DNA of 64,000 bases from assembly GCA_964016885.1 (NCBI GenBank), contig OZ024742.1, positions 17,050,001 through 17,114,000 on the forward strand. Reading direction: 5' to 3'. Below the pieces are notes generated by a model. The model was given only the letters and a program-made list of their open reading frames with translations, was not told the origin of the DNA and did not search any database. The translations under genes and the position numbers were made by a program. Positions 14,580 through 60,464 of this stretch are shown here, in pieces; position 1 is the stretch's first letter, and each line of letters begins with the position of its first letter. The stretch comes from Eledone cirrhosa. Its lineage: Eukaryota.

Positions 14580-16790
14580 GTATGAGTTACCCTGGAGGAG
14601 ATCAACGCCAATGCTTACAGGATAATATCCGGACTTGGCATAGATGATAGGACAGCCCCATACCAACCGAAGGAGCCGAGGATTACCCTTAAAGATCACA
14701 AGCCCAACTTTGAGTCCGACCTTCCGGTTAGACTAATAGCCTCTTCCAAGTCAGACATGGGGATCGTCAGTAAAAGCATACTCGATAGGATTTTGCCTAT
14801 GCTTTAGAAAAAAACTAAATTACAGCAATGGCCATGCACAGGTGAGGTAATAGAGTGGTTTACGCTATTACGTGAGAAAAGTAGGACCAGCTTTATCCAA
14901 CTGGATATTGCTGGCTACTCCTCCTCAATCTCGCCCATAGTACTTAATAAGGCTCTTATTTTAGCAATGTCCAATACAGACGTAACCCGCGAGGAGGTAG
15001 GCATCATCCACGCCACCCGAAAGCCCTTGATCCGTTTCAGTGCGGACCTTTGGAGTAGGAGTGATTGGCCAAATAACTTTGACATCACAATGGGCTCCAG
15101 CGACTCTGCACAGGTAACGGACATGGTTGGGCTCTTCTTACTGAAGCAGATAAAAGAAGAAATCCCCTGCCTGGGCGGCGGATTGTATCGTCACGATGCT
15201 CTCTTCACAGTCTATGACCACAGCACCACTATGGTGGAGAGAATGAAGAGGCGAATTAGGCATTTCTTTAGGAACCATGGGCTTAGCATTGGATTAGACC
15301 CCAATAGAAAGGTAGTCAACTTCCTAGACACCACCCCAAACCTGAGCACTGAGCAATACTACCCCCATCACAAGCCCAACGAGAAACTGGTATATGTTAA
15401 CGCTAAGTCAAACCACCCTAGAACCATAATTAAGGCCGTAGTCAAGAGTGTCTCGGACAGGATCTCCAACATGTCCACTAATAAAGAGATCTTCGATAGC
15501 AACGCAGAATATTATAACGCAGCTCTAAATAAGGCGGCCCATGCCCAAAATATACCTTACAACCCGAGCCGCCATGATAGAGATAGCACATCGGACCTCC
15601 CGACCCACGGTATCCGAGAGGGGGGGGGTTAACCTAAGAGTGCAGGCAAAGTGGAAGCAACTAAACCCCATAAACCCGGCACCACCACATTAGCGAAAAG
15701 GACGCGTACACCTAGCCATGGGAAGAAACCCAGAACGCGAGGCGGTCTCAGGGGTGATACTAACCACACCAGGCCCGACGCCCCCAACCGCAAGACACGA
15801 AGCGGGACTGATGGGGGATCATCCCATTGTAGAACTCTCAGCGTGGGTACACACCACCCCACAGGTACGGGCCGAGAAGCTAGCAAAAAACATTGCGCCC
15901 ACAGGGGAAGAAACAATGCGGGAACCAGTAGCAGCCCACCAACTCCCCAACAGCCCACAGCCCGCTCAATCCACCCACATAGGAATAGACTAAGAAAAAT
16001 TACGTGGTATAACTCACCCAGCCTGGCCCGGTCATTCTTTAGGGCACTAGATAAATGCTTCCCTAGGGACCACAGATACCACAAGATCTTCAACAGACAC
16101 ACTGTGAAGCTAAAGATTTGACCACGCGCAACGTAGTCCAGCACACAGCTAGCATCATTAGAAGTAGACTTAGAAACTACACACAGCCAGCAGCTGACAA
16201 TATAGGCACCCAGCAGAGCCATGTGGAGGGAAGGAATGGTGGACCCGGAACCCACGCTGGGAACCCAAACAGATCCAGGGACTCCCCACCGGGCCCAGGG
16301 AAAGACCACCCTATACTACGCAACGGGAACCCCACAATAGGCATTCAGGGGTCGACCACATCCTGCAACTGCAGAACCCCCACATTATGCCCCCTTAGTA
16401 ATGAATGCCTAATGAAGAACTTAGTATACGGATGTTGAATAAAAACTTCCAACTCTATGCACCTTTACATCGGAGCCACATCAACAAGCTTCAAAGAAAG
16501 ATAGTATAACCATCGCCATTCCTTTAATAGGCAGGGCAAAAGGAAAAGTACGGCTCTTTCCGAACTGATCTGGAAGCTCAACCTGGATACGACCCCGTAC
16601 TCTCTGGCCTGGTCCCAAATCAGGAAAGTGTCACCTGATAGAGGGGGATCTAGCATCTGCAACCTATGTCTGAACGGGACGCCTCGAGATACTCAGTGGT
16701 GGGAGTAACCTAACCAACCTCAGGACCGACTTCTTTGGTACATGTAGACAGCTCATGGCCGGAACCTTCCTCAAGCTATATGGATAACAA
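14580..16790 (+). pseudogene. Penelope RT plus GIY-YIG endonuclease pseudo-ORF
   Basis: Multiple stops and frameshifts. The catalytic YRDD is mutated to YRHD. Parts appear as ORFs 14967-15632, 15651-16121 and 16118-16438. Confidence 0.85.
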
Positions 16791-21380: not shown

Positions 21381-22415
21381 GAGGGCGGTGGATTGGCAGT
21401 ATGGGTAGAGGTTCTGACGCCATTTTAGGGTGGTGGATTGGCAGTATAGGTAGAGGGTCTGACGCCATTTTAGGGTGGTGGATTGGCAGTATAGGTAGAG
21501 GGTCTGACACCATGTTAGGGTGGTAGATTGGCAGTATCGGTAGAGGGTCTGACACCATGTTATGGTGGTGGATTGGCAGTATAGGTAGAGGGTCTGACAC
21601 CATGTAAGGGTGGTAGATTGGCAGTATAGGTAGAGGGTCTGACACCATGTTAGGGTGGTGGATTGGCAGTATAGGTAGAGGGTCTGACACCATGTTAGGG
21701 TGGTGGATTGGCAGTATAGGTAGAGGGTCTGACACCATGTTAGGGTGGTAGATTGGCAGTATCGGTAGAGGGTCTGACGCCATGCTAGGGTGGTGGATTG
21801 GCAGTATAGGTAGAGGTTCTGACGCCATTTTAGGGTGGTGGATTGGCAGTATAGGTAGAAAGTCTGACACCATGTTAGGGTGGTGGATTGGCAGTATCGG
21901 TAGAGGGTCTGACACCATGTTAGGGTAGTGGATTGGCAGTATCGGTAGAGGGTCTGACACCATGTTAGGGTGGTGGATTGGCAGTATAGGTAGAGGGTCT
22001 GACACCATGTTAGGGTGGTGGATTGGCAGTATAGGTAGAGGGTCTGACACCATGTTAGGGTGGTGGATTGGCAGTATCGGTAGAGGGTCTGACACCATGT
22101 TAGGGTGGTGGATTGGCAGTATAGGTAGAGGGTCTGACACCATGTTAGGGTGGTGGATTGGCAGTATAGGTAGAGGGTCTGACGCCATTTTAGGGTGGTG
22201 GATTGGCAGTATAGGTAGAGGGTCTGACACCATGTTAGGGTGGTGGATTGGCAGTATCGGTAGAGGGTCTGACACCATGTTAGGGTGGTGGATTGGCAGT
22301 ATCGGTAGAGGGTCTGACACCATGCTAGGGTGGTGGATTGGCAGTATCGGTAGAGGGTCTGACACCATGCTAGGATGGTGGATTGGCAGTATCGGTAGAG
22401 GGTCTGACGCCATGC
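21381..22415 (+). repeat. 45-bp minisatellite, ~23 units, derived from the SINE 5' head
   Basis: The unit tagggtggtggattggcagtat(a/c)ggtagagggtctgacaccatg(t/c) matches SINE nt 1-45 and runs directly into the SINE body. Confidence 0.95.
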
Positions 22416-22560
22416 TTTCCAGCATAGTTACGTCCCTTTGCGATCTGAGTTCAAATCTGCCGAGGTTGACTTTTCCTTTCATCCTGACGGGTCGATAAAA
22501 TAAAGTACCAGTAATACACACAAGGTAATTGCTGGCCTTGTGCCAAAAGTAGAATCAATT
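22371..22560 (+). mobile_element. Full-length Nin-domain SINE at the 3' end of the 45-bp array
   Basis: B-box gagttcaaatc, Nin core and 3' tail. The 13-bp TSD attagtagtgatc (21328-21340 and 22558-22570) encloses array plus SINE. Confidence 0.9.
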
Positions 22561-22699
22561 AGTAGTGATCAAATTTCATATGTGTATATAGATATATACA
22601 CATATGTATTTATATAGATATATATACATATGCATATATTAGAAAAGGGAAGTAATGTTCTCTACAAAACAGTGGATATAGGGAAGAGATGAAGTTGAA

Positions 22700-30412: not shown

Positions 30413-30605
30413 AAGGGCGGTGGATTGGCAGTATCGGTAGAAGGTCGGACGCCATGCTTTCCAGCATAGTTACGTCCCTTTACGAACTGAGTTCAAATCC
30501 CGCCGAGGTTTACTTTGCCTTTCATCCTTACGGGGTCGATAAAATAAAGTGCCAGTAATGTACTGGGATAATTGCTGGCCTTGTGCCAAAAGTAGAAACA
30601 ATTAT
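30413..30605 (+). mobile_element. Full-length Nin-domain SINE
   Basis: gggcggtggattggcagtatcggtag (A-box), gagttcaaatcc (B-box), Nin core. TSD attattttcccaataa. Confidence 0.92.
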
Positions 30606-36572: not shown

Positions 36573-37334
36573 ACATGTCACATATATCTCGATATACTGT
36601 ATATATATCACACATACCTGCAGTATCAATATAACATGTAGGGACTTACTGGTATGTACTGTGTTGACGATCAACGTACGAACAAATCAACTAATGAACT
36701 GCCTCTTGGGACATAAATCGTTCGTAATTTGGGGACTTATTGCAACGATAATCAAAATTCGAGCCAGAAACACGCAGAATTAACATTCAGTAAAAATACA
36801 TTTGTGAAAGATCTAAAAATATTCTTAACTGGAAATGCTGAACATAACAAAAATCTAGAAGTGGCAATAATTCTTCTTTGCGATTAGCGCTAGACCATCC
36901 CAAAGGTAAAAAAGGCTAACGATAGAACTACACCAGTAATAAAATACAAACATAAGCAACACTTAATATCAATATCACCAGATTAAGTCAAATAATATAT
37001 GTAGCAACAACAGTAACTAGAAAGGTATACGAGTGCTTCCGCCAGATTATTCTGAGAGAGATAAAAAGTGTATTATGTAGATTAAGGTAATATATTCCTA
37101 CTGATATATGATAGAGGAGGTAATTTAGCAGAGTTTTCAAGAACGACCAATAGAATGTCTGGCTCTATTAGTTAAGGTCTGCGTTCAAATCCCGTTCAGT
37201 CAATTGTGCTCTTTATCCTTTTGGAGGTTACATAAATATTCCTCTAGCCAGTTCCCCCTTCATCTCTCTCTCTCTCTCTCTCTTTCTTTCTATATTTCTA
37301 TCTTTCTTTCTTTCTATCTCTCTCTCGGACAAGA

Positions 37335-37850
37335 TGCCTTATGGCATAGATTTACGGCCCTTTATTATCTGAGTTTAAATCTAGCCGAGATTAACTTTGC
37401 TTTTCATCCTTACGGGGTCGATAAAATAAAGTACCAATAATGCGCTGGGGTCGATTTAATCGACTTTCCCTTCTCCCCAAATTGCTGGCCTGGTGCCTAT
37501 TGTAGAAATCCTTATTGGTGGTTTGGCAGTAGTGGTAGAGTGTCAGATACCATGCTTTTCAGCATAGAGTTACGGCCCTTTACGTTCTGAGCTCAAATCG
37601 GCCGAGTTTAACTTTGCCTTTCATCCTTACGGGGTCGATAAAATAAAGTACCAGTAATGCGCTGGCGTAATTGCTGTCCTTGTGCCAAAAGTAGAAACAT
37701 TATTATTATTATTAATCCCGCCGAGGTTAGCTTTCCTTTCATCCTTACGGTGTCGATAAAATAAAGTACCAGTAATGCGCTGGGGTCGATGTAATTGACT
37801 TTCCTCTCTTCCAAAATTGTTGCCCTTGTTCTTTAATCAGAGACCAATAT
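37335..37850 (+). mobile_element. Cluster of three tandem Nin-domain SINE copies (37335-37510, 37517-37705, 37714-37850)
   Basis: Three successive catccttacgg.gtcgataaaataaagtacca cores. Two carry the ggggtcgat..aat.gacttt extension. Confidence 0.85.
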
Positions 37851-38429: not shown

Positions 38430-38613
38430 TGGATTGGCAGTAACGGTAGAGGGTCGGACGCCATGCTTTCCAGCATAGTTACGTCCCTTTACGATCTGAG
38501 TTCAAATCCCGCCGAGGTTGACTTTGCCTTTCATCCTTACGGGGTCGATAAAATAAAGTACCAGTAATGCACTGGATAATTGCTGGCCTTGTGCCTAAAG
38601 TAGAAACAATTAT
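38430..38613 (+). mobile_element. Nin-domain SINE inserted into the tail of the hammerhead element
   Basis: Consensus-like SINE starting right after cttcacatttatt. Confidence 0.9.
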
Positions 38614-41185: not shown

Positions 41186-42119
41186 CCAGGGAGAAAGAGA
41201 AGATTATTAGGAAGAAAATTATATTTTTTTCCTTTTTTGTTTCTCTCTCTCTTTTTTCTGGGTTAGAAAATGATTAAAACGAAATATTTTACTTTGTGCG
41301 AAGTGTTAAGGTAGTAGTTGATTTATTTATTATTTAACAATGGCATTTATTTATCTATTTATATATTTAATTATTGTCTATTACCGGTTTCAGCATTTTT
41401 ATGCATTATCAAATGATAGTGAAATGTATTAGTGTGGTGTCGCACATGTTAAACAGAAGGTGCAGAAAGAATAATGTTATTTACAAACAAGGTTTATGAA
41501 GTGAAAAGAAAAAAAGAAAAAGGAAAACAAAACGTGCATAATGTGGAACCTAAAAAGTCAATGTGGAAGAAAAAATAATGTTATTTACAAGCAAAGTCAT
41601 TGAAGTTATATATATATATGTTGAAATATGACGAGTAACCGAATTCAACTAACATATTCTTCTCTCCCCACAGCCCCAGCGGACAGAATGGAGAAGGTGT
41701 TTCCCCGGAGGACGTCAAGGGAGACGCGTGGCTGTGTTGATTCTGTTTTTTTTTATTTTATTTTTAAAATAAAGTATAGAAATCAATCAAACATTCAATA
41801 TTCGTTGTAGCTATTTCTACAACAGCGGTTGTATTATTGTGTGTTATCCATTCATTGCACTTCTAGATGTTATCCTATGATATACCATAGGTGGAGATTT
41901 CCCGGTATTAACTGTTGTGTAGGATTTTGATAACAACTTGATTTGACATTAACTCTTGTCAGTTTGTTGTTGATGTCCACACAACATGAATTAATGAAAT
42001 GCGGCTTCGCATGATACCTAATATCAGAAAATTAGAAACGTTTCTTATAATAAATAATAAACTTTCCATTGTGAGCGACAGTGTTGATCTGATCAGACAC
42101 AGTAAAAAGACAAAGAATA

Positions 42120-42312
42120 TAATTGTATCTACTTTTTGAAATAGGCCAGCAATTACAGTGTATTTCAGGTACTTTATTTTATCAACCCCGTAAGGATGAA
42201 AAGCAAAGGTAACCTTCGCGGGAAAGAGCCGAACTCAGAATGAAAAGGGCCGTAACTCTTAGCGTCAAAGCATGGTGTCAGACCCACTACCGATACTGCC
42301 AATCCACCACCC
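42120..42312 (-). mobile_element. Diverged Nin-domain SINE that anchors the giant 45-bp array
   Basis: aattgtatctacttttt..ggccagcaatt..ggtactttattttatcaaccccgtaaggatgaaa..gaactcag..gtaactct..agcatggtgtcagacc continues directly into the array. Confidence 0.85.
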
Positions 42313-45300
42313 TAGCATGGTGTCAGACCCTCTACCCATACTGCCAATCCACCACCCTAGCATGGTGTCAGACCCTCTACCCATACTGCCAATCCAGCAC
42401 CCTACCATGGTGTCAGACCTTCCGCTATTACTGTCAATCCACCACCCTAGCATGGTGTCAGACCCTCTAGCGATACTACCAATCTACCACCCTATCATGG
42501 TGTCAGACCCTCTACCGATACTGCCAATCTACCACCCTATCATGGTGTCAGACCCTCTAGCGATACTGCCAATCTACCACCCTATCATGGTGTCAGACCC
42601 TCTACCGATACTGCCATTCCACCACCCTACCATGGTGTCAGACCTTCCACTATTACTGCCAATCCACCACCCTAACATGGTGTCAGAACCTCTTCCGATA
42701 CTGCCAATCAACCACCCTAACATGGTGTCAGACCCTCCACTGATACTGCCAATCCACCACCCTAGCATGGTGTCAGACCCTCCACTGATACTGCCAATCT
42801 ACCACCCTACCATGGTTTCAGACTCTCTACCGATACTGCCAATCCACCACCCTAACGTGGTGTCAAACCCTCTACCTATACTGCCAATCCACCACCCTAG
42901 CATGGCGTCAGACCCTCTACCGATACTGCCAATCCACCACCCTAGCATGGTGTCAGACCCTCTACTTATACTGCCAATCCACCACCCTAACATGGTGTCA
43001 GACGCTCTACCGATGCTGCCAATCCAGCACCCTAGCATGGTGTCAGACCCTCTACCTATACTGCCAATCCACCACCCTAGCATGGTGTCAGACCCTCTAC
43101 CTATACTGCCAATCTACCACCCTAACATGGTTTCAGGCTCTCTACCGATACTGCCAATCCACCACCCTAACATGGTGTCAGACCCTCTACCTATACTACC
43201 AATCTACCACCCTAACATGGTGTCAGACCCTCCACTGATACTGCCAATCTACCACCCTAACATGGTGTCAGACCCTCCACTGATACTGCCAATCCACCAC
43301 CCTAACATGGTGTCAGACCCTCCACTGATACTGCCAATCTACCACCCTAGCATGGCGTCAGACCCTCCACTGATACTGCCAATCTACCACCCTAACATGG
43401 TGTCAGACCCTCCACTGATACTGCCAATCCACCACCCTAACATGGTGTCAGACCCTCCACTGATACTGCCACTCTACCACCCTAACATGGTGTTCGACCC
43501 TCTACCAATACTGCCAATCCACCACCCTAAGATGGTGTCAGACCCTCCACTGATACTGCCAATCTACCACCATACCATGGTGTCTGACCCTCCACTGATA
43601 CTGCCACTCTACCACCCTAACATGGTGTCAGACCCTCCACTGATACTACCATTCTACCACCCTAACATGGTGTCAGACCCTCCACTGATACTGCCAATCT
43701 ACCAACCTACCATGGTGTCAGACCCTCCACTGATACTGCCACTCTACCACCCTAACATGGTGTCAGACCCTTCACTGATACTGCCACTCTACCACCCTAA
43801 CATGGTGTCAGACCCTCTACCTATAATGCCAATCCACCACCCTAGCATGGTGTCAGACCCTCCACTGATACTGCCAATCTACCACTCTAGCATGGTGTCA
43901 GACCCTCTACTGATACTGCCAATCTACCACCCTAACATGGCGTCAGACCCTCTACAGATACTGCCAATCTACCACCCTAACATGGTGTCAGTCCCTCTAC
44001 CGATACTGCCAATCTACCACCCTACCATGGTGTCAGACCCTCTACTGATACTGCCAATCCACCACCCTAACATGGTGTCAGACCCTCTACCCATAATGCC
44101 AATCCACCACCCTAGCATGGTGTCAGACCATCCACTGATACTATCAATCCACAACCCTAACATGGTGTCAGACCCTCCACTGATACTACCAATCTACCAC
44201 CCTAGCATGGCGTCAGACCCTCCACTGATACTGCCAACCTACCACCCTAACGTGGTGTCAGACCCTCCACTGATACTGCCAACCTACCACCCTAACGTGG
44301 TGTCAGACCCTCCACTGATACTACCAACCTACCACCCTTACATGGTGTCAGACCCTCCACTGATACTACCAACCTACCACCCTTACATGGTGTCAGACCC
44401 TCCACTGATACTACCAATCTACCACCCTAGCATGGCGTCAGACCCTCCACTGATACTGCCAACCTACCACCCTAACGTGGTGTCAGACCCTCCACTGATA
44501 CTACCAACCTACCACCCTTACATGGTGTCAGACCCTCCACTGATACTATCAATCCACCAACCTAACGTGGTGTCAGACCCTCCACTGATACTGCCAATCC
44601 ACCACCCTAACAAGGTGTCAGACCCTCCACTGATACTACCAACCTACCACCCTTACATGGTGTCAGACCCTCCACTGATACTATCAATCCACCAACCTAA
44701 CGTGGTGTCAGACCCTCTGATGATACTGCCAATCCACCACCCTAACATGGTGTCAGACCCTCCACTGATACTGCCAATCTACCACCCTAACATGGTGTCA
44801 GACCCTCCACTGATACTGCCAATCCAGCACCCTAACATGGCGTCAGACCCTCTACCGATACTGCCAATCCACCACCCTAGCATGGTGTCAGACCCTCTAC
44901 CGATACTGCCAATCCACCACACTAGCATGGTGTCAGACCCTCTACCGATACTGCCAATCCACCACCCTAGCATGGTGTCAGACCCTCTACCGATACTGCC
45001 AATCTACCACCCTAGCATGGTGTCAGACCCTCTACCGATACTGCCAATCTACCACCCTAGCATGGTGTCAGACCCTCCACTGATACTACCAATCTACCAC
45101 CCTAACATGGTGTCAGACCCTCCACTGATACTACCAATCTACCAACCTACAATGGTGTCAGACCCTCCACTGATACTGCCAATCTACCACCCTAACTTGG
45201 TGTCAGACCCTCCACTGATACTACCTATCTACCACCCTAACATGGTGTCAGACCCTCCACTGATACTGCCAATCTACCACCCTAACATGGTGTCAGATCC

Positions 45301-48300
45301 TCTACCTATACTGCCAATCTACCACCCTAACATGGTGTCAGACCCTCTACCTATACTGCCAATCTTCCACCCTAGCATGGTGTCAGACCCTCTACCTATA
45401 CTGCCAATCTACCACCCTAGCATGGTGTCAGACCCTCTACCTATACTGCCAATCCACCACCCTAACATGGTGTCAGACCGTCCACTGATACTACCAATCT
45501 ACCACCCTAACATGGTGACAGACCCTCCACTGATACTGCCAATCCACCACCCTAGCATGGCGTCAGACCCTCCACTGATACTGCCAATCCACCACCCTAA
45601 CATGGTGTCAGACCCTCCACTGATACTGCCAATCTACCACCCTAACATGGCGTCAGACCCTCCACTGATACTGCCAATCCACCACCCTAGCATGGTGTGA
45701 GACCCTCCACTGATACTACCAATCCACCACCCTAGCATGTTGTGAGACCCTCCACTGATACTGCCAATCCACCACCCTAGCATGGCGTCAGACCCTCCAC
45801 TGATACTGCCAATCCACCACCCTAACATGGCGTCAGACCCTCCACTGATACTGCCAACCTACCACCCTAACATGGTGTCAGACCCTCCACTGATACTACC
45901 AATCTACCACCCTAACATGGTGTCAGACCCTCCACTGATACTACCAATCTACCACCCTAACATGGTGTCAGACCCTCCACTGATACTGCCAACCTACCAC
46001 CCTAACATGGTGTCAGACCCTCCACTGATACTACCAATCTACCACCCTAGCATGGTGTCAGTCCCTCTACCGATACTACCAATCTACCACCCTAACATGG
46101 TGACAGACCCTCCACTGATACTGCCAATCCACCACCCTGAAATGGTGTCAGACCCTCCACTGATACTACCAATCTACCACCCTAACATGGTGACAGACCC
46201 TCCACTGATACTGCCAATCCACCACCCTAACATGGTGTCAGACCCTCCACTGATACTGCCAATCTACCACCCTAACATGGTGTCAGACCATCCACTGATA
46301 CTACCAATCTACCACCCTAACATGGTGACAGACCCTCCACTGATACTGCCAATCCACCACCCTAACATGGTGTCAGACCCTCCACTGATACTGCCAATCT
46401 ACCACCCTAACATGGTGTCAGACCATCCACTGATACTACCAATCTACCACCCTAACATGGTGACAGACCCTCCACTGATACTGCCAATCCACCACCCTAA
46501 CATGGTGTCAGACCCTCCACTGATACTGCCAATCTACCACCCTAACATGGTGTCAGACCATACACTGATACTACCAATCTACCACCCTAACATGGTGTCA
46601 GACCATCCACTGATACTACCAATCTACCACCCTAACATGGTGACAGACCCTCCACTGATACTACCAATCTACCACCCTAACATGGTGTCAGACCCTCCAC
46701 TGATACTGCTAATCTACCACCCTAACATGGTGTCAGACCCTCCACTGATACTACCAATCTACCAACCTACAATGGTGTCAGACCCTCCACTGATACTACC
46801 AATCTACCAACCTAACATGGTGTCAGAGCCTCTACCTATACTGCCAATCTACCACTCTAGCATGATGTCAGACTCTCCACTGATACTGCCAATCTACCAC
46901 CCTAACATGGTGGCAGACACTCCACTGATACTACCTATCTACCACCCTAACATGGTGTCAGACCCTCCACTGATACTGCCAATCTACCACCCTAACATGG
47001 TGTCAGACCCTCTACCTATACTGCCAATCTACCACCCTAACATGGTGTCAGACCCTCTACCTATACTGCCAATCTTCCACCGTAGCATGGTGTCAGACCC
47101 TCTACCTATACTGCCAATCTACCACCCTAACATGGTGTCAGACCCTCTACTGATACTGCCAGTCCACCACCCTAACATGGTGTCAGACCCTCTACCTATA
47201 CTGCCAATCTACCACCCTAACATGGTGTCAGACCCTCTACTGATACTGCCAGTCTACCACCCTAACATGGTGTCAGACCCTCTACCTATACTGCCAATCT
47301 ACCACCCTAGCATGGTGTCAGACCCTCCACTGATACTGCCAATCTACCACCCTAACATGGCGTCAGACCCTCCACTGATACTGCCAATCTACCACCCTAA
47401 CATGGTGTCAGACCCTCTACCTATAATGCCAATCTACCACCCTTACATGGTGTCAGTCCCTCCACTGATACTGCCAATCCACCACCCTAACATGGTGTCA
47501 GACCCTCCACTGATACTGCCAATCCACCACCCTAACATGGTGTCAGAACCTCCACTGATACTATCAATCCACCACCCTAGCATAGTGTCAGACCCTCTAC
47601 CGATACTGCCAATCCACCACCCTAACATGGTGTCAGACCCTCCACTGATACTACAAATCCACCACCCGTGCATGGTGCCAGACCCTCTACCTATACTGCG
47701 AATCCACCACCCGTGCATGGTGCCGGACCCTCTACCTATACTGCCAATCCACCACTCTAACATGGCGTCAGACCCTCTACCTATACTGCCAATCCACCAC
47801 CCTAGCATGGTGCCAGACCGTCTACCGATACTGCCAATCCATCACCCTAACATGGTGTCAGACCCTCCACTGATACTACCAACCTGCCACCCTAACATGG
47901 TGTCAGACCCTCCACTGATACTACCAATCCACCACCCGTGCATGGTGCCAGACCCTCTACCGATACTGCCAGTCCACCACCCATACATGGTGTCAGACCC
48001 TCTACCGATACTGCCAATCCACCACCCTAGCATGGTGTCAGACCCTCTACGGATACTACCAATCCACCACCCTACCATGGTGTCAGACCCTCTACCGATG
48101 CTGCCAATCCATCACCCTAACATGGTGTCAGACACTCTACCGATACTGCCAATCTACCACCCTAACATGGTGTCAGACCGTCTACTGATACTGCCAATCC
48201 ACCACCCTAGCATGGTGTCAGACCCTCTAACTATAATGCCAATCCACCACCCTTACATGGTGTCAGACCCTCCACTGATACTGCCAATCTACCACCCTAA

Positions 48301-51300
48301 CAAGGTGTCAGACCCTCCACTGATACTACCAATCTACCACCCTAACATGGTATCAGACCCTCCACTGATACTATCAATCCACCACCCTAACATGGTGTCA
48401 GACCCTCCACTGATACTACCAATCTACCACCCTAACATGGTATCAGACCCTCCACTGATACTATCAATCCACCACCCTAACATGGTGTCAGACCCTCCAC
48501 TGATACTACCAATCTACCACCCTAACGTGGTGTCAGACCCTCCACTGATACTACCAACCTGCCACCCTTACATGGTGTCAGACCCTACATTGATACTATC
48601 AATCCACCAACCTAACGTGGTGTCAGACCCTCTGATGATACTGCCAATCCACCACCCTAACATGGTGTCAGACCCTCCACTGATACTATCAATCCACCAA
48701 CCTAACGTGGTGTCAGACCCTCTGATGATACTGCCAATCCACCACCCTAACATGGTGTCAGACCCTCCACTGATACTGCCAATCTACCACCCTAACGTGG
48801 TGTCAGTCCCTCCACTGAAACTACCAACCTACCACCCTTACATGGTGTCAGACCCTCCACTGATACTATCAATCCACCAACCTAACGTGGTGTCAGACCC
48901 TCCACTGATACTATCAATCCACCACCCTAGCATAGTGTCAGACCCTCTACCGATACTGCCAATCCACCACCCTACCATGGTGTCAGACCCTCCACTGATA
49001 CTATCAATCCACCACCCTAGCATAGTGTCAGACCCTCTACCGATACTGCCAATCCACCATCCTAACATGGTGTCAGAACCTCCACTGATACTATCAATCC
49101 ACCACCCTAGCATAGTGTCAGACCCTCTACCGATACTGCCAATCCACCACCCTACCATGGTGTCAGACCCTCCACTGATACTATCAATCCACCAACCTAA
49201 CGTGGTGTCAGACCCTCCACTGATACTACCAATCCACCACCCGTGCATGGTGCCAGACCCTCTACCTATACTGCCAATCCACCACCCGTGCATGGTGCCA
49301 GACCCTCTACCTATACTGCCAATCCACCACCCTAACATGGCGTCAGACCCTCTACCTATACTGCCAATCCACCACCCTAGCATGGTGCCAGACCCTCTAC
49401 CGATACTGCCAATCCATCACCCTAACATGGTGTCAGACCCTCCACTGATACTACCAATCTACCACCCTAACATGGTGTCAGACCCTCCACTGATACTACC
49501 AATCTACCAACCTACCATGGTGTCAGACCCTCCACTGATACTGCCAATCTACCACACTAACATGGTGTCAGACCCTCCACTGATACTACCAATCTACCAA
49601 CCTACCATGGTGTCAGACCCTCCACTGATACTGCTAATCTACCACCCTAACATGGTGTCAGACCCTCCACTGATACTGCCAATCTACCACCCTAACATGG
49701 TGTCAGACCCTCCACTGATACTACCAATCTACCAACCTACCATGGTGTCAGACCCTCCACTGATACTGCTAATCTACCACCCTACCATGGTGTCAGACCC
49801 TCCACTGATACTGCTAATCTACCACCCTAACATGGTGTCAGACCCTCCACTGATACTACCAATCTACCAACCTACCATGGTGTCAGACCCTCCACTGATA
49901 CTACCAATCTACCACCCTAACATGGTGTCAGAGCCTCTACCTATACTGCCAATCTACCACTCTAGCATGGTGTCAGACTCTCCACTGATACTGCCAATCT
50001 ACCACCCTAACATGGTGTCAGACACTCCACTGATACTACCTATCTACCACCCTAACATGGTGTCAGACCCTCCACTGATACTGCCAATCTACCACCCTAA
50101 CATGGTGTCAGACCCTCTACCTATACTGCCAATCTACCACCCTAACATGGTGTCAGACCCTCTACCTATACTGCCAATCTTCCACCCTAGCATGGTGTCA
50201 GACCCTCTACCTATACTGACAATCTACCACCCTAACATGGTGTCAGACCCTCTACTGATACTGCCAGTCCACCACCCGTGCATGGTGCCAGACCCTCTAC
50301 CGATACTGCCAATCCACCACCCTAGCATGGTGTCAGACCCTCCACTGATACTGCCAATCTACCACCCTAGCATGGTGTCAGACCCTCTACCTATACTGCC
50401 AATCCACCACCCTAACATGGCGTCAGACCCTCTACCTATACTGCCAATCCACCACCCTAGCATGGTGCCAGACCCTCTACCTATACTGCCAATCCACCAC
50501 CCATACATGGTGTCAGACCCTCTACCGATACTGCCAATCTACCACCCTAGTATGGTGTCAGACCCTCCACTGATACTGCCAACCTACCACCCTAACATGG
50601 TGTCAGACCCTCCACTGATACTGCCAATCTACCACCCTAACATGGCGTCAGACCCTCTACCGATACTGCCAGTCCACCACCCTAGCATGGTGTCAGACCC
50701 TCTACCGATACTGCCAATCCACCACCCTAGCATGGTGTCAGACCATCTACCGATACTGTCAGTCCACCACCCTAGCATGGTGTCAAACCATCTACCGATA
50801 CTGCCAGTCCACCACCCTAGCATGGTGTCAGACCCTCTACCTATACTGCCAATCCACCACCCTAACATGGTGTCAGACCCTCTACCTATACTGCCAATCT
50901 ACCACCCTTACATGGTGTCAGACCCTCTACCTATACTGCCAATCCACCACCCTTACATGGTGTCAGACCCTCTACCTATACTGCCAATCTACCACCCTAA
51001 CATGGTGTCAGACCCTCTACCTATACTGCCAATCTACCACCCTAGCATGGTGTCAGACCCTCTACCTATACTGCCAATCTACCACCCTAGCATGGTGTCA
51101 GACCCTCTACCTATACTGCCAATCCACCACCCTTACATGGTGTCAGACCCTCTACCTATACTGCCAATCCACCACCCTAGCATGGTGTCAGACCCTCTAC
51201 CTATACTGCCAATCTACATCCCTAGCATGGTGTCAGACCCTCTACCTATACTGCCAATCCACCACCCTAACATGGTGTCAGACCCTCTACCTATACTGCC

Positions 51301-54300
51301 AATCTACCACCCTAGCATGGTGTCAGACCCTCTACCTATACTGCCAATCCACCACCCTAGCATGGCGTCAGACCCTCTACCTATACTGCCAATCTACCAC
51401 CCTTACATGGTGTCAGACCCTCCACTGATACTGCCAATCTACCACCCTTACATGGTGTCAGACCCTCTACCTATACTGCCAATCCACCACCCTTACATGG
51501 TGTCAGACCCTCTACCTATACTGCCAATCTACCACCCTAACATGGTGTCAGACCCTCTACCTATACTGCCAATCTACCACCCTAACATGGTGTCAGACCC
51601 TCTACCTATACTGCCAATCCACCACCCTAGCATGGTGTCAGACCCTCTACCTATACTGCCAATCCACCAACCTTACATGGTGTCAGACCCTCTACCTATA
51701 CTGCCAATCCACCACCCTAGCATGGTGTCAGACCCTCTACCTATACTGCCAATCCACCACCCTAGCATGGTGTCAGACCCTCTACCTATACTACCAATCT
51801 ACCACCCTAGCATGGTGTCAGACCCTCTACCTATACTGCCAATCCACCACCCTAACATGGTTTCAGACCCTCTACCTATACTGCCAATCCACCACCCTAA
51901 CATGGTGTCAGACCCTCTACCTATACTGCCAATCCACCACCCTTACATGGTGTCAGACCCTCTACCTATACTGCCAATCTACCACCCTAGCATGGTGTCA
52001 GACCCTCTACCTATACTGCCAATCCACCACCCTAGCATGGTGTGAGACCCTCCACTGATACTACCAATCCACCACCCTAGCATGTTGTGAGACCCTCCAC
52101 TGATACTGCCAATCCACCATCCTAGCATGGCGTCAGACCCTCCACTGATACTGCCAATCCACCACCCTAACATGGCGTCAGACCCTCCACTGATACTGCC
52201 AACCTACCACCCTAACATGGTGTCAGACCCTCCACTGATACTACCAATCTACCACCCTAACATGGTGTCAGACCCTCCACTGATACTACCAATCTACCAC
52301 CCTAACATGGTGTCAGACCCTCCACTGATACTGCCAACCTACCACCCTAACATGGTGTCAGACCCTCCACTGATACTACCAATCTACCACCCTAGCATGG
52401 TGTCAGTCCCTCTACCGATACTACCAATCTACCACCCTAACATGGTGACAGACCCTCCACTGATACTGCCAATCCACCACCCTGAAATGGTGTCAGACCC
52501 TCCACTGATACTACCAATCTACCACCCTAACATGGTGACAGACCCTCCACTGATACTGCCAATCCACCACCCTAACATGGTGTCAGACCCTCCACTGATA
52601 CTGCCAATCTACCACCCTAACATGGTGTCAGACCATCCACTGATACTACCAATCTACCACCCTAACATGGTGACAGACCCTCCACTGATACTGCCAATCC
52701 ACCACCCTAACATGGTGTCAGACCCTCCACTGATACTGCCAATCTACCACCCTAACATGGTGTCAGACCATCCACTGATACTACCAATCTACCACCCTAA
52801 CATGGTGACAGACCCTCCACTGATACTGCCAATCCACCACCCTAACATGGTGTCAGACCCTCCACTGATACTGCCAATCTACCACCCTAACATGGTGTCA
52901 GACCATACACTGATACTACCAATCTACCACCCTAACATGGTGTCAGACCATCCACTGATACTACCAATCTACCACCCTAACATGGTGACAGACCCTCCAC
53001 TGATACTACCAATCTACCACCCTAACATGGTGTCAGACCCTCCACTGATACTGCTAATCTACCACCCTAACATGGTGTCAGACCCTCCACTGATACTACC
53101 AATCTACCAACCTACAATGGTGTCAGACCCTCCACTGATACTACCAATCTACCAACCTAACATGGTGTCAGAGCCTCTACCTATACTGCCAATCTACCAC
53201 TCTAGCATGATGTCAGACTCTCCACTGATACTGCCAATCTACCACCCTAACATGGTGGCAGACACTCCACTGATACTACCTATCTACCACCCTAACATGG
53301 TGTCAGACCCTCCACTGATACTGCCAATCTACCACCCTAACATGGTGTCAGACCCTCTACCTATACTGCCAATCTACCACCCTAACATGGTGTCAGACCC
53401 TCTACCTATACTGCCAATCTTCCACCGTAGCATGGTGTCAGACCCTCTACCTATACTGCCAATCTACCACCCTAACATGGTGTCAGACCCTCTACTGATA
53501 CTGCCAGTCCACCACCCTAACATGGTGTCAGACCCTCTACCTATACTGCCAATCTACCACCCTAACATGGTGTCAGACCCTCTACTGATACTGCCAGTCT
53601 ACCACCCTAACATGGTGTCAGACCCTCTACCTATACTGCCAATCTACCACCCTAGCATGGTGTCAGACCCTCCACTGATACTGCCAATCTACCACCCTAA
53701 CATGGCGTCAGACCCTCCACTGATACTGCCAATCTACCACCCTAACATGGTGTCAGACCCTCTACCTATAATGCCAATCTACCACCCTTACATGGTGTCA
53801 GTCCCTCCACTGATACTGCCAATCCACCACCCTAACATGGTGTCAGACCCTCCACTGATACTGCCAATCCACCACCCTAACATGGTGTCAGAACCTCCAC
53901 TGATACTATCAATCCACCACCCTAGCATAGTGTCAGACCCTCTACCGATACTGCCAATCCACCACCCTAACATGGTGTCAGACCCTCCACTGATACTACA
54001 AATCCACCACCCGTGCATGGTGCCAGACCCTCTACCTATACTGCGAATCCACCACCCGTGCATGGTGCCGGACCCTCTACCTATACTGCCAATCCACCAC
54101 TCTAACATGGCGTCAGACCCTCTACCTATACTGCCAATCCACCACCCTAGCATGGTGCCAGACCGTCTACCGATACTGCCAATCCATCACCCTAACATGG
54201 TGTCAGACCCTCCACTGATACTACCAACCTGCCACCCTAACATGGTGTCAGACCCTCCACTGATACTACCAATCCACCACCCGTGCATGGTGCCAGACCC

Positions 54301-57300
54301 TCTACCGATACTGCCAGTCCACCACCCATACATGGTGTCAGACCCTCTACCGATACTGCCAATCCACCACCCTAGCATGGTGTCAGACCCTCTACGGATA
54401 CTACCAATCCACCACCCTACCATGGTGTCAGACCCTCTACCGATGCTGCCAATCCATCACCCTAACATGGTGTCAGACACTCTACCGATACTGCCAATCT
54501 ACCACCCTAACATGGTGTCAGACCGTCTACTGATACTGCCAATCCACCACCCTAGCATGGTGTCAGACCCTCTAACTATAATGCCAATCCACCACCCTTA
54601 CATGGTGTCAGACCCTCCACTGATACTGCCAATCTACCACCCTAACAAGGTGTCAGACCCTCCACTGATACTACCAATCTACCACCCTAACATGGTATCA
54701 GACCCTCCACTGATACTATCAATCCACCACCCTAACATGGTGTCAGACCCTCCACTGATACTACCAATCTACCACCCTAACATGGTATCAGACCCTCCAC
54801 TGATACTATCAATCCACCACCCTAACATGGTGTCAGACCCTCCACTGATACTACCAATCTACCACCCTAACGTGGTGTCAGACCCTCCACTGATACTACC
54901 AACCTGCCACCCTTACATGGTGTCAGACCCTCCATTGATACTATCAATCCACCAACCTAACGTGGTGTCAGACCCTCTGATGATACTGCCAATCCACCAC
55001 CCTAACATGGTGTCAGACCCTCCACTGATACTATCAATCCACCAACCTAACGTGGTGTCAGACCCTCTGATGATACTGCCAATCCACCACCCTAACATGG
55101 TGTCAGACCCTCCACTGATACTGCCAATCTACCACCCTAACGTGGTGTCAGTCCCTCCACTGAAACTACCAACCTACCACCCTTACATGGTGTCAGACCC
55201 TCCACTGATACTATCAATCCACCAACCTAACGTGGTGTCAGACCCTCCACTGATACTATCAATCCACCACCCTAGCATAGTGTCAGACCCTCTACCGATA
55301 CTGCCAATCCACCACCCTACCATGGTGTCAGACCCTCCACTGATACTATCAATCCACCACCCTAGCATAGTGTCAGACCCTCTACCGATACTGCCAATCC
55401 ACCATCCTAACATGGTGTCAGAACCTCCACTGATACTATCAATCCACCACCCTAGCATAGTGTCAGACCCTCTACCGATACTGCCAATCCACCACCCTAC
55501 CATGGTGTCAGACCCTCCACTGATACTATCAATCCACCAACCTAACGTGGTGTCAGACCCTCCACTGATACTACCAATCCACCACCCGTGCATGGTGCCA
55601 GACCCTCTACCTATACTGCCAATCCACCACCCGTGCATGGTGCCAGACCCTCTACCTATACTGCCAATCCACCACCCTAACAAGACGTCAGACCCTCTAC
55701 CTATACTGCCAATCCACCACCCTAGCATGGTGCCAGACCCTCTACCGATACTGCCAATCCATCACCCTAACATGGTGTCAGACCCTCCACTGATACTACC
55801 AATCTACCACCCTAACATGGTGTCAGACCCTCCACTGATACTACCAATCTACCAACCTACCATGGTGTCAGACCCTCCACTGATACTGCCAATCTACCAC
55901 ACTAACATGGTGTCAGACCCTCCACTGATACTACCAATCTACCAACCTACCATGGTGTCAGACCCTCCACTGATACTGCTAATCTACCACCCTAACATGG
56001 TGTCAGACCCTCCACTGATACTGCCAATCTACCACCCTAACATGGTGTCAGACCCTCCACTGATACTACCAATCTACCAACCTACCATGGTGTCAGACCC
56101 TCCACTGATACTGCTAATCTACCACCCTACCATGGTGTCAGACCCTCCACTGATACTGCTAATCTACCACCCTAACATGGTGTCAGACCCTCCACTGATA
56201 CTACCAATCTACCAACCTACCATGGTGTCAGACCCTCCACTGATACTACCAATCTACCACCCTAACATGGTGTCAGAGCCTCTACCTATACTGCCAATCT
56301 ACCACTCTAGCATGGTGTCAGACTCTCCACTGATACTGCCAATCTACCACCCTAACATGGTGTCAGACACTCCACTGATACTACCTATCTACCACCCTAA
56401 CATGGTGTCAGACCCTCCACTGATACTGCCAATCTACCACCCTAACATGGTGTCAGACCCTCTACCTATACTGCCAATCTACCACCCTAACATGGTGTCA
56501 GACCCTCTACCTATACTGCCAATCTTCCACCCTAGCATGGTGTCAGACCCTCTACCTATACTGACAATCTACCACCCTAACATGGTGTCAGACCCTCTAC
56601 TGATACTGCCAGTCCACCACCCGTGCATGGTGCCAGACCCTCTACCGATACTGCCAATCCACCACCCTAGCATGGTGTCAGACCCTCCACTGATACTGCC
56701 AATCTACCACCCTAGCATGGTGTCAGACCCTCTACCTATACTGCCAATCCACCACCCTAACATGGCGTCAGACCCTCTACCTATACTGCCAATCCACCAC
56801 CCTAGCATGGTGCCAGACCCTCTACCTATACTGCCAATCCACCACCCATACATGGTGTCAGACCCTCTACCGATACTGCCAATCTACCACCCTAGTATGG
56901 TGTCAGACCCTCCACTGATACTGCCAACCTACCACCCTAACATGGTGTCAGACCCTCCACTGATACTGCCAATCTACCACCCTAACATGGCGTCAGACCC
57001 TCTACCGATACTGCCAGTCCACCACCCTAGCATGGTGTCAGACCCTCTACCGATACTGCCAATCCACCACCCTAGCATGGTGTCAGACCATCTACCGATA
57101 CTGTCAGTCCACCACCCTAGCATGGTGTCAAACCATCTACCGATACTGCCAGTCCACCACCCTAGCATGGTGTCAGACCCTCTACCTATACTGCCAATCC
57201 ACCACCCTAACATGGTGTCAGACCCTCTACCTATACTGCCAATCTACCACCCTTACATGGTGTCAGACCCTCTACCTATACTGCCAATCCACCACCCTTA

Positions 57301-59276
57301 CATGGTGTCAGACCCTCTACCTATACTGCCAATCTACCACCCTAACATGGTGTCAGACCCTCTACCTATACTGCCAATCTACCACCCTAGCATGGTGTCA
57401 GACCCTCTACCTATACTGCCAATCTACCACCCTAGCATGGTGTCAGACCCTCTACCTATACTGCCAATCCACCACCCTTACATGGTGTCAGACCCTCTAC
57501 CTATACTGCCAATCCACCACCCTAGCATGGTGTCAGACCCTCTACCTATACTGCCAATCTACATCCCTAGCATGGTGTCAGACCCTCTACCTATACTGCC
57601 AATCCACCACCCTAACATGGTGTCAGACCCTCTACCTATACTGCCAATCTACCACCCTAGCATGGTGTCAGACCCTCTACCTATACTGCCAATCCACCAC
57701 CCTAGCATGGCGTCAGACCCTCTACCTATACTGCCAATCTACCACCCTTACATGGTGTCAGACCCTCCACTGATACTGCCAATCTACCACCCTTACATGG
57801 TGTCAGACCCTCTACCTATACTGCCAATCCACCACCCTTACATGGTGTCAGACCCTCTACCTATACTGCCAATCTACCACCCTAACATGGTGTCAGACCC
57901 TCTACCTATACTGCCAATCTACCACCCTAACATGGTGTCAGACCCTCTACCTATACTGCCAATCCACCACCCTAGCATGGTGTCAGACCCTCTACCTATA
58001 CTGCCAATCCACCAACCTTACATGGTGTCAGACCCTCTACCTATACTGCCAATCCACCACCCTAGCATGGTGTCAGACCCTCTACCTATACTGCCAATCC
58101 ACCACCCTAGCATGGTGTCAGACCCTCTACCTATACTACCAATCTACCACCCTAGCATGGTGTCAGACCCTCTACCTATACTGCCAATCCACCACCCTAA
58201 CATGGTTTCAGACCCTCTACCTATACTGCCAATCCACCACCCTAACATGGTGTCAGACCCTCTACCTATACTGCCAATCCACCACCCTTACATGGTGTCA
58301 GACCCTCTACCTATACTGCCAATCTACCACCCTAGCATGGTGTCAGACCCTCTACCTATACTGCCAATCCACCAACCTAGCATGGTGTCAGACCCTCTAC
58401 CTATACTGCCAATCTACCACCCTAGCATGGTGTCAGAACCTCTACCTATACTGCCAATCCACCAACCTAGCATGGTGTCAGACCCTCTACCTATACTACC
58501 AATCCACCAACCTAGCATGGTGTCAGACCCTCTACCTATACTGCCAATCCACCAACCTAGCATGGTGTCAGACCCTCTTCCTATACTGCCAATCTACCAC
58601 CCTAGCATGGTGTCAGACCCTCTACCTATACTGCCAATCCACCAACCTAGCATGGTGTCAGACCCTCTACCTATACTGCCAATCCACCAACCTAGCATGG
58701 TGTCAGACCCTCTACCTATACTGCCAATCCACCACCCTAGCATGGTGTCAGACCCTCTACCTATAGTGCCAATCCACCAACCTAGCATGGTGTCAGACCC
58801 TCTACCTATACTGCCAATCCACCAACCTAGCATGGTGTCAGACCCTCTACCTATACTGCCAATCCACCAACCTAGCATGGTGTCAGACCCTCTACCTATA
58901 CTGCCAATCCACCAACCTAGCATGGTGTCAGACCCTCTACCTATAGTGCCAATCCACCAACCTAGCATGGTGTCAGACCCTCTACCTATACTGCCAATCC
59001 ACCACCCTAGCATGGTGTCAGACCCTCTACCTATAGTGCCAATCCACCAACCTAGCATGGTGTCAGACCCTCTACCTATACTGCCAATCCACCAACCTAG
59101 CATGGTGTCAGACCCTCTACCTATACTGCCAATCCACCAACCTAGCATGGTGTCAGACCCTCTACCTATACTGCCAATCCACCAACCTAGCATGGTGTCA
59201 GACCCTCTACCTATACTGCCAATCCACCAACCTAGCATGGTGTCAGACCCTCTACCTATACTGCCAATCCACCACC
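42271..59276 (-). repeat. Giant 45-bp tandem array (~378 units, ~17 kb) of the SINE 5' head
   Basis: Plus-strand unit catggtgtcagaccctc(t/c)ac(c/t)(g/t)atactgccaatc(c/t)accacccta(a/g). The 45-bp phase holds throughout: ORF starts 42272, 45782 and 52127 differ by multiples of 45. Confidence 0.98.
45668..58357. repeat. 6345-bp (141-unit) higher-order tandem duplication within the array
   Basis: The same succession of rare variant units recurs at +6345 (e.g. TGA pairs at 45698/45743 and 52043/52088). Only a few differences were seen. Confidence 0.92.
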
Positions 59277-59370
59277 GAATAGAAAATAATGGTTGGTTTG
59301 TTACTAATACTCGTGTTGTTGGGGGAGGAGGGGGCTACAGGTAGTCATTAATCTTGGGTTTAACGAGGAA

Positions 59371-59504
59371 AATGATGATGTTGGACACGATAGTGATGGT
59401 GATGATGATGATGATGATGATGACGAAGGTGCTGATGCCGATGATGGTGATGATGATGATAGTGATGATGATGATGACGATGGTGGTGATGATGACGATG
59501 GTTG

Positions 59505-59535
<31 letters not shown>

Positions 59536-59641
59536 GATGACGAAGGTTGTGATGCCGATGATGGTGATGGTGATGATGGTGATGATGATGATGACGATGG
59601 TGGTGGTGATGATGATGATGGTGGTGATGACGATGGTGGTG

Positions 59642-59672
<31 letters not shown>
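59371..59672. repeat. (GAT/GGT)n trinucleotide repeat
   Basis: Seen directly. It yields the poly-M/H/S ORFs. Confidence 0.95.
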
Positions 59673-59673
<1 letters not shown>

Positions 59674-59778: not shown

Positions 59779-60205
59779 TTCTGTTGCTATAGGTATTTGT
59801 ATCACTGTTATCCTCTAGTACTATGTCTGCTTCTGTTGCTATAGGTATTTGTATCACTGTTATCCTCTAGTACTATGTCTGCTTCTGTTGCTATAGGTAT
59901 TTGTATCACTGTTATCCTCTAGTACTATGTCTGCTTCTGTTGCTATAGGTATTTGTATCACTGTTATCCTCTAGTACTATGTCTGCTTCTGTTGCTATAG
60001 GTATTTGTATCACTGTTATCCTCTAGTACTATGTCTGCTTCTGTTGCTATAGGTATTTGTATCACTGTTATCCTCTAGTACTATGTCTGCTTCTGTTGCT
60101 ATAGGTATTTGTATCACTGTTATCCTCTAGTACTATGTCTGCTTCTGTTGCTATAGGTATTTGTATCACTGTTATCCTATAGTACTATGTCTGCTTCTGT
60201 TGCTA
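59779..60205. repeat. 52-bp minisatellite, ~8.2 near-identical copies
   Basis: Unit ttctgttgctataggtatttgtatcactgttatcctctagtactatgtctgc. Confidence 0.95.
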
Positions 60206-60464
60206 TCTCAAATGACAGTTCTACAGCAAACACCCCACTGTTATAGTCAGAACAGCAGAAAGAAGTGTTAGAATCAATTCTCTAATATCTATATATAACG
60301 GATATGTTAACTTCGCGAACGTATAGGCTTTATATTTAATTTTTTATCATACATACATACATACATACATATATATATATATACATATATGTATATATAT
60401 GTATATATCATATATATATATACATATGTATACATATATATACATATATATACATATGTATATG

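What the first reader, a model, noticed from the sequence alone, without database searches (positions are those of the whole stretch)
42120..59276. A SINE whose 5' Pol III A-box head is tandemly amplified into a 17-kb array
Seen: the 45-bp unit is nt 1-45 of the local tRNA-derived SINE (compare gggcggtggattggcagtatcggtagagggtcggacgccatgct at 30414 and 38430). It is repeated ~378 times and joined directly to a single SINE body that holds the only B-box and Nin domain. Known: TGGCAGTATCGG is A-box-like, so the locus is hundreds of A-boxes upstream of one B-box. This recalls the 5' promoter monomers of rodent L1, but here in a SINE and about 100-fold longer. Inference: this may be a SINE-to-satellite birth mechanism (head reiteration), or a multimerised promoter / TFIIIC-binding platform that could produce long repeat RNA.
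Basis: partly seen in the sequence, partly recalled or inferred. Interest (0 to 1): 0.85.

Follow-up and report, generated by a model that had tools for sequence, protein, structure and literature searches.

The report
SINE-head satellite family near chromosome ends
The 17-kb repeat is real but not unique: it is one of many arrays near chromosome ends in which the first 45 bases of a common short jumping element (a SINE) are repeated in front of one copy, and these arrays likely spread by DNA copying from existing arrays into ordinary copies rather than working as a promoter.

Summary
Confirmed: 378 gap-free 45-bp units (42269-59278, minus strand), each equal to SINE nt 1-45, joined to one SINE body. 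It is not a lone locus. A 23-unit sister array sits at 21382, and I read 74 such arrays in the genome, of 2 to over 2,600 units. 72 of 73 with a visible 3' end carry a body. Target-site duplications enclose array plus body as often as they enclose single SINEs, so each array lies inside one insertion. Arrays occur on all body types with the same junction. They sit near the ends of the three largest chromosomes (41 of 45 loci), while single copies are at least as dense in the interior. Neighbouring arrays share derived unit variants. Best reading: a SINE-derived satellite like the squamate sSats, likely seeded into ordinary SINE copies by ectopic gene conversion and grown by unequal exchange. 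A promoter role is unlikely here: the B box is broken and only 41 of 378 units keep the A-box 12-mer. A near-perfect 6.3-kb internal duplication needs long-read confirmation. The Nin-domain label and expression were not tested.

The parts
42269..59278 (-). Array of 378 x 45-bp units, each nt 1-45 of the local SINE head (A-box half only); first unit lacks nt 1-2
42124..42268 (-). Single SINE body (rest of tRNA-like part, central domain, tail), of the 'GACG' body type, about 79% identical to local copies
42226..42236 (-). B-box position; the GTTCRANNC consensus (recalled) is not met in this copy
42114..42123 (-). Possible 3' copy of a target-site duplication, 9 of 10 matches to 59281-59290; score 7, within the range of shuffled controls
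59281..59290 (-). Possible 5' copy of the target-site duplication (weak)
45776..52029 (.). First copy of a 141-unit (6,345-bp period) internal duplication
52121..58374 (.). Second copy of the duplication; 3 mismatches in 6,254 bp (very recent event or assembly artefact)
21382..22416 (+). Second array of the same family, 23 units; 48% of its inner units are identical to units of the large array
22417..22561 (+). SINE body of the second array, a different body type ('CCAG-short') from that of the large array
30414..30604 (+). Ordinary single-head SINE copy with a 16-bp target-site duplication, used as reference
38430..38611 (+). Ordinary 5'-truncated single-head SINE copy

Best explanation
This is one member of a genome-wide SINE-derived satellite family in which SINE nt 1-45 is repeated inside a single SINE insertion in front of its body; the extra heads were likely copied in from existing arrays by DNA recombination near chromosome ends and then likely multiplied in place by unequal exchange. 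Steps: (1) a SINE retrotransposes normally and leaves a target-site duplication (shown for the family, weak for this locus); (2) a head-to-head junction arises once or rarely, by an unknown event; (3) inferred: a break in the head of an ordinary distal copy is repaired on an ectopic array and re-anneals out of register, so the copy gains heads but keeps its own flanks, 5' truncation and body; (4) shown by unit patterns: the array grows by small and large duplications, loses CpG and drifts; (5) inferred: arrays keep exchanging units, mostly with neighbours. No function is needed; it is likely neutral.
For: 72 of 73 arrays with a visible 3' end end in a body, a few only in part. Target-site duplication score of 10 or more: 35 of 63 arrays, 29 of 61 single copies, 11 of 315 shuffled pairs; a 14-bp duplication flanks a 34-kb array (its middle was seen only as junction hits). 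Array bodies are interleaved with single-copy bodies on a tree: 36 label changes, at least 6 forced by well-supported branches. In 36 arrays with a clear duplication the first unit starts at nt 1-14, as in 24 single copies, while inner units are complete, so local duplication alone cannot supply the missing bases. 41 of 45 junction loci on the three largest contigs lie in the outer 15% of either end (p about 1e-17 against 30%), whereas single heads numbered 16 per 200 kb interior and 8 per 200 kb distal. A G-to-T change at nt 34 is in 3.4% of head-body junctions but 44% of head-head junctions genome-wide and is common in 26 of 53 arrays across five body types. Multi-change unit haplotypes are shared more between arrays under 5 Mb apart (0.063 against 0.021 in length-stratified permutations; 0 of 3,000 as high). 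Array length falls with distance from the chromosome end (rho -0.34, p 0.005, n 65). CpG per unit is 0.32 against 4 in the SINE head.
Against: No conversion event is seen directly; it is inferred from patterns. The array sample is biased by my queries (one search used the window's own variant; many arrays come from the start of C1), so the neighbour-sharing signal rests largely on one chromosome arm, and about half of the 53 arrays share no multi-change haplotype with any other. Arrays with the same body type are also somewhat more alike in their units than arrays with different bodies (distance 3.31 against 3.93), and the array label is mildly clustered on the body tree (22 of 500 shuffles as low), which fits some inheritance through RNA. 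The body tree has only 100 columns and 7 well-supported branches. On C4 only 5 of 8 loci are distal. Several shared changes are at CpG sites and could recur. In 3 of 5 two-head copies both heads share a non-consensus base, which needs short conversion tracts or later homogenisation. One 98-kb array has no body at its 3' end. This locus's own target-site duplication is weak. Completeness of the position lists is assumed from their order; I could check them only where I had DNA.
Confidence: 0.58

Rival explanations
1. The extra heads are made at the RNA or reverse-transcription step: either multi-head source genes are transcribed and retrotransposed, or the LINE reverse transcriptase, on reaching the RNA 5' end, restarts at nt 45 (which lies at the foot of a small hairpin loop and before a TTT run). 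Long arrays then grow in place.
For: Target-site duplications enclose the whole structure, including perfect ones around two- to four-head copies. First units show the usual 5' trimming. The unit ends on the 5' side of a predicted 4-nt loop in 3 of 4 folded copies, although the folds are not significant (z -1.7 to +0.3). Same-body arrays have slightly more similar units. Shared bases in both heads of 3 of 5 dimers fit re-copying of one RNA.
Against: Insertion should put short multi-head copies wherever single copies go, but no junction was listed in C1 39-388 Mb or C2 40-392 Mb, where single copies are common. It needs a separate multi-head master, or the same jump, in each body type. Junctions in short arrays are nearly invariant, whereas template jumps usually add untemplated bases (recalled for R2). 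An upstream A box would lie about 110 nt from the B box.
Confidence: 0.25
2. Each array arose independently by local slippage or unequal exchange of the SINE's own head (the first reader's head reiteration), with the breakpoint fixed by sequence or structure.
For: Arrays occur on all body types; many carry private variants; distal position fits recombination-driven birth.
Against: 5'-truncated first units cannot regenerate the complete inner units. The base before nt 1 is variable flank, so local duplication would not give one junction. Derived variants are shared across loci.
Confidence: 0.08
3. The array is kept as a functional multimerised Pol III promoter, TFIIIC platform, insulator or source of long repeat RNA.
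For: 55 of 65 array bodies in the genome keep a B-box consensus; the large array has no T4 run on the SINE-sense strand; related head-head junctions are present in contigs of three other organisms.
Against: This locus's B box is broken. Only 41 of 378 units keep the SINE A-box 12-mer and 173 keep the GG at nt 23-24. TFIIIC binding depends mainly on the B box (established knowledge, recalled). Length varies from 2 to over 2,600 units with no preferred size. B-box retention is similar in single copies (46 of 62).
Confidence: 0.05
4. The length is partly an assembly artefact: the 6.3-kb internal duplication is a false expansion and the true array is about 237 units (10.7 kb). This changes the size, not the nature, of the finding.
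For: Only 3 mismatches in 6,254 bp, while neighbouring units differ by about 9%.
Against: The 3 mismatches are not zero; recent block duplications are expected in growing arrays; 146 ordered unit variants cannot be an artefact; a contig from a run of organism A matches the flank and the body's 3' part (41699-42195) without differences, though that run may be the assembly's own sample.
Confidence: 0.25

Closest known systems
SINE-derived satellites (sSat1-3) of squamate reptiles, Vassetzky, Kosushkin and Ryskov 2023, PMC10702118 (main text parts 1-4 of 5 read; supplements not read)
   Same: Tandem repeats of part of a tRNA-related SINE; one terminal unit runs out to the SINE end; from a few units to about 1,200; many loci per genome; subtelomeric, more so for long loci; locus-specific subvariants; some units cover the 5' part or tRNA part (sSat3Gja2, sSat3Ppi2).
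   Different: Unit is 45 bp (theirs about 70-290) and is exactly the 5'-terminal A-box half without the B box (the snake unit holds box B). Here the whole element is kept, inside a target-site duplication, on several body types with one junction. The main text has no occurrence of 'target site', 'TSD', 'ectopic' or 'box A', and 'conversion' only in a reference title. Different animal group.
Alu-derived minisatellites, including 136 human loci with a partial Alu (mean 88.6 bp) repeated next to a full-length Alu, PMC3389668 (passages seen)
   Same: Part of a SINE repeated at the 5' side of an intact copy.
   Different: Mean about 2.3-2.4 units; repeated parts come from many regions of the element; no single junction shared by many loci and no 10-100 kb arrays described in the passages seen.
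Tandem SINE arrays of bivalves, PMC11481361 (passages seen)
   Same: SINE-derived direct repeats in an invertebrate genome, ascribed to unequal recombination.
   Different: Whole elements of at least 150 bp, 2-15 units; not head-only.
Rodent L1 5' promoter monomers and SVA VNTR (recalled, not tested)
   Same: Variable number of tandem units inside one retroposon insertion.
   Different: Those repeats are part of the transposed RNA and (L1) are working Pol II promoters; here nearly all copies of the SINE have one head, and multi-head copies depend on chromosome position.
Amphibian tRNA-like tandem repeats (OAX, PolIII/TAN, Rana/polIII, Hy/polIII), as summarised in PMC10702118
   Same: Tandem repeats with a Pol III promoter-like part.
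   Different: Units of 200-360 nt or more, no confirmed parent SINE; PolIII/TAN is transcribed in vitro.

Membership tests
SINE-derived satellite (sSat) | Repeat unit is a part of an interspersed SINE, shorter than the SINE | tested here: met
   unit = nt 1-45 of a ~190-nt element with 69,340 exact head-body junction matches
SINE-derived satellite (sSat) | At least four middle monomers in head-to-tail order | tested here: met
   378 units
SINE-derived satellite (sSat) | A terminal unit extends to the SINE terminus | tested here: met
   72 of 73 arrays with visible 3' end
SINE-derived satellite (sSat) | Many loci with one dominant unit structure | tested here: met
   74 arrays read; 10,641 exact head-head junction matches
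SINE-derived satellite (sSat) | Subtelomeric location | tested here: met
   41 of 45 loci distal on C1-C3; 5 of 8 on C4; contig ends are taken as chromosome ends
SINE-derived satellite (sSat) | Heterochromatic state | not testable with these tools
   CpG loss only hints at methylation
tRNA-derived SINE (parent element) | Interspersed, about 190 nt, target-site duplications | tested here: met
tRNA-derived SINE (parent element) | Head homologous to a tRNA, with A and B boxes | tested here: inconclusive
   no ARAGORN or Rfam tRNA hit; B-box consensus in 101 of 127 bodies; A box judged by recalled consensus
tRNA-derived SINE (parent element) | 3' tail shared with a partner LINE | not tested
   no search made
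Nin-domain (Nin-DC/Deu) SINE | Central domain homologous to Nin-DC | not testable with these tools
   no reference sequence available; resemblance is recalled only
Multimeric promoter (L1-monomer type) | Intact promoter elements at the locus | tested here: not met
   B box broken; 41 of 378 A-box 12-mers kept
Multimeric promoter (L1-monomer type) | Repeats are transcribed or raise transcription | not testable with these tools
   needs RNA and ChIP data

The most novel reading that the evidence does not exclude
A satellite that spreads by using a SINE family as landing pads: one head-to-head junction is handed by ectopic recombination from array to ordinary SINE copies of any subfamily near chromosome ends, and each converted copy keeps its insertion scar, 5' truncation and body as a date stamp. 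Hundreds of loci from 2 units to over 100 kb would then form a natural time series of satellite birth, spread and homogenisation.
Probability: 0.5. Interest if true: 0.65.

Novelty: new variant of a known kind. Interest (0 to 1): 0.45.

Why it matters
How a satellite reaches new loci is hard to observe because arrays usually lose the marks of their origin. Here each array keeps a target-site duplication, a 5' end and a subfamily-typed body, so seeding by DNA recombination can be told from seeding through RNA by a simple census and by population data. It also extends SINE-derived satellites beyond squamates with a shorter, head-only unit. It is probably not a functional element, and the single 17-kb locus is not special. 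Practical point: one frame of the antisense strand is almost free of stops and could be mis-annotated as a long repeat protein.

Tried and rejected
Rfam scans: only microsatellite-driven miRNA-like noise over 21300-42500 and nothing relevant on one SINE copy; ARAGORN found no tRNA. No RNA holder listed for the locus; this says nothing on expression. No laid contig spans the array, so its length is unconfirmed. Folding of the SINE 5' part was not significant; the hairpin-apex idea stays a lead. Coding function of the array was rejected: 4 stops in 5,670 codons in one frame is what a stop-free 15-codon unit with few stop-prone codons would give (my judgement, no formal test). The exact-haplotype comparison with single copies was discarded because truncated heads carried flank bases. 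Single origin of all array-bearing SINEs was rejected by the body tree. Four other ORFs of the window had no Pfam hit. Literature searches found no description of this repeat; most subscription journals and Repbase/Dfam/SINEBase are not covered, so it may be catalogued there. Look-ups of earlier findings gave nothing for this genome or sequence. The organism looks like an octopod from recalled repeat features; this was not tested.
Full report
Observation. The array is real. TRF reports 377.9 copies of a 45-bp unit at 42271-59276. In register there are 378 units of exactly 45 bp on the minus strand (42269-59278), 146 of them distinct, with no indels. The unit is nt 1-45 of a roughly 190-nt interspersed element with about a dozen copies in the window, and the last unit continues into one body at about 42124-42268. 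The body is the most diverged in the window (78-80%) and its B-box position no longer fits the consensus. Units 21-161 and 162-302 are a 6,345-bp duplication with 3 mismatches in 6,254 bp: either a very recent event or an assembly error. A second array of 23 units plus body lies at 21382-22561 on the plus strand.

A genome-wide family. The window lies 17 Mb from the start of a 379-Mb contig in a 3.0-Gb assembly. A 24-nt motif for the head-body junction has 69,340 exact matches, and its head-head counterpart 10,641. Scaling by the match rate in arrays I read gives roughly 28,000 units, about 1.3 Mb (rough). I read 73 distinct arrays in 628 kb and one more. Sizes run from 2 units to 21, 34, 56, 98 and over 119 kb, so the 17-kb array is not the largest. 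Of 73 arrays with a visible 3' end, 72 end in a SINE body (a few in a partial one). Leaving out the 26 found with a body-containing query, it is 46 of 47. The exception is the 98-kb array, whose 5' flank recurs 2.4 kb further on in front of a 10-unit array with a body, which points to a later rearrangement. One array's 3' end was not reached. Contigs from runs of three other organisms bridge head-head junctions at 85% likeness or better (records 10, 23, 27), so related repeats exist in relatives.

Each array lies inside one insertion. A duplication score of 10 or more between the 5' flank and the sequence after the tail was found for 35 of 63 arrays, 29 of 61 single copies and 11 of 315 shuffled pairs (15 of 78 array segments and 11 of 72 single copies were dropped because an end, body or tail was not visible). 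A 14-bp duplication flanks the 34-kb array. For the window's large array the match is weak (9 of 10, score 7). Growth in place is shown by nested small duplications and by regional unit variants along the array.

Where the extra heads come from. Four results bear on it. First, bodies of arrays and of single copies are interleaved on a tree (65 and 62 rows, 100 columns; 36 changes, at least 6 forced; shuffled mean 42.5, 22 of 500 as low), so there is no single multi-head lineage, yet the junction is nearly the same everywhere. Second, among copies with a clear duplication the first unit starts at nt 1-14 in 36 arrays, as in 24 single copies (the start call is rough), and truncated first units are followed by complete ones, for example a two-head copy whose first head starts at nt 7 directly after a 19-bp duplication. 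A copy cannot rebuild these bases from itself. Third, position: 41 of 45 junction loci on C1-C3 lie in the outer 15% of either end, none in C1 39-388 Mb or C2 40-392 Mb, while single heads numbered 16 in 200 kb of interior and 8 in 200 kb of distal samples and a head-body variant is listed evenly along C1 to 187 Mb. C4 is less clear (5 of 8). C1-C4 hold 54% of the genome but about 14% of the matches of one junction motif. Fourth, arrays share derived bases: T at nt 34 is in 3.4% of head-body and 44% of head-head junctions (the latter weighted by long arrays) and reaches 20% or more in 26 of 53 arrays with at least 8 inner units, across five body types. Arrays under 5 Mb apart share more multi-change haplotypes than length-matched permutations and agree more in T34 state (p 0.01). 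The window's small array, on a different body type, has 48% of its inner units identical to units of the large array.

Mechanism. The simplest account is DNA-level seeding: a break in the head of an ordinary distal SINE is repaired on an array and re-anneals out of register, adding heads while keeping flanks and body; unequal exchange then lengthens the array, more so near the ends. This is inference. Against it: no event is seen directly; the sample is biased towards the start of C1; about half of the arrays share no complex haplotype with any other; same-body arrays have somewhat more similar units; some shared changes are at CpG sites; and 3 of 5 dimers share a private base in both heads. 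The RNA-level rival (multi-head masters, or a restart of reverse transcription at nt 45, next to a small predicted hairpin loop, not significant) explains the duplications equally well but not the empty interiors. How the first junction arose is unknown.

Function. Only 41 of 378 units keep the SINE's A-box 12-mer, 173 keep the GG at nt 23-24, and CpG has fallen from 4 to 0.32 per unit. The only B box is broken. A promoter or TFIIIC platform at this locus is therefore unlikely. In other arrays the B box survives about as often as in single copies (55 of 65 and 46 of 62). Expression was not testable.

Comparison. PMC10702118 (main text parts 1-4 of 5, and a word search; supplements not read) describes SINE-derived satellites in squamates with the same layout: part of a SINE in tandem, one terminal unit running to the SINE end, up to about 1,200 monomers, subtelomeric, some from the 5' part. 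PMC3389668 (passages) reports 136 human loci with a partial Alu repeated beside a full one. PMC11481361 (passages) reports whole-SINE tandems in bivalves. PMC4758252, PMC5804259, PMC4824008 and PMC12054243 were seen as passages only and gave no sequence for the Nin test. No description of this repeat came up in searches or 83. What differs here is the short A-box-only 5' unit, the retained whole element inside its duplication, one junction on many body types, and the evidence for spread between loci.

Verdict. Real, a new variant of a known kind. The 17-kb locus itself is ordinary within its family; the interest lies in the family as a readable record of how a satellite seeds new loci. Interest 0.45.

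Noticed in passing
window 21382-22561 (+): Second SINE-head array, 23 units plus body, on a different body type from the large array.
   Followed up: yes
window 42269-59278 (+ strand, frame of 42269): Antisense frame has only 4 stops in 5,670 codons (15-residue repeat); a 2,417-codon open stretch at 52091-59344 could be mis-annotated as a protein.
   Followed up: partly
G000:C1:6525904 to beyond 6644999 (L112, L041, L042, L113, L114, L161-L167): Array of the same family over 119 kb long; 3' end not reached.
   Followed up: partly
G000:C1:10316706-10417334 (L172, L044 and loci between): 98-kb array without a body at its 3' end; its 5' flank recurs 2.4 kb downstream in front of a 10-unit array with a body.
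   Followed up: partly
G000:C3:17214300-17270410 (L179, L046 and loci between): 56-kb array with a body, about 100 kb from the window.
   Followed up: partly
L025:884-1017: Single-head copy whose head ends in the head-head junction bases and then joins the body; may be a collapsed array.
   Followed up: no
L019:1880-3281: An unrelated tandem repeat of roughly 55-60 bp starts right after the SINE tail.
   Followed up: no
window 59779-60206: Very uniform 52-bp tandem repeat, 8.2 copies, 99% matches, 500 bp from the array's 5' end; a long (TGA)n tract lies at 59394-59673.
   Followed up: no
window 2661-3209 (+) and 14808-15632 (+): Open frames that look like pieces of retroelement reverse transcriptases (RTE-like and Penelope-like, by recalled motifs); no Pfam hit at E 0.01.
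   Followed up: partly
window 37325-37784; many fetched loci: SINE copies often sit directly in the ATT-rich tail of another copy; target-site duplications mostly begin with ATTAT.
   Followed up: partly
window 3320-3475: Two-copy 78-bp direct repeat, 87% matches.
   Followed up: no
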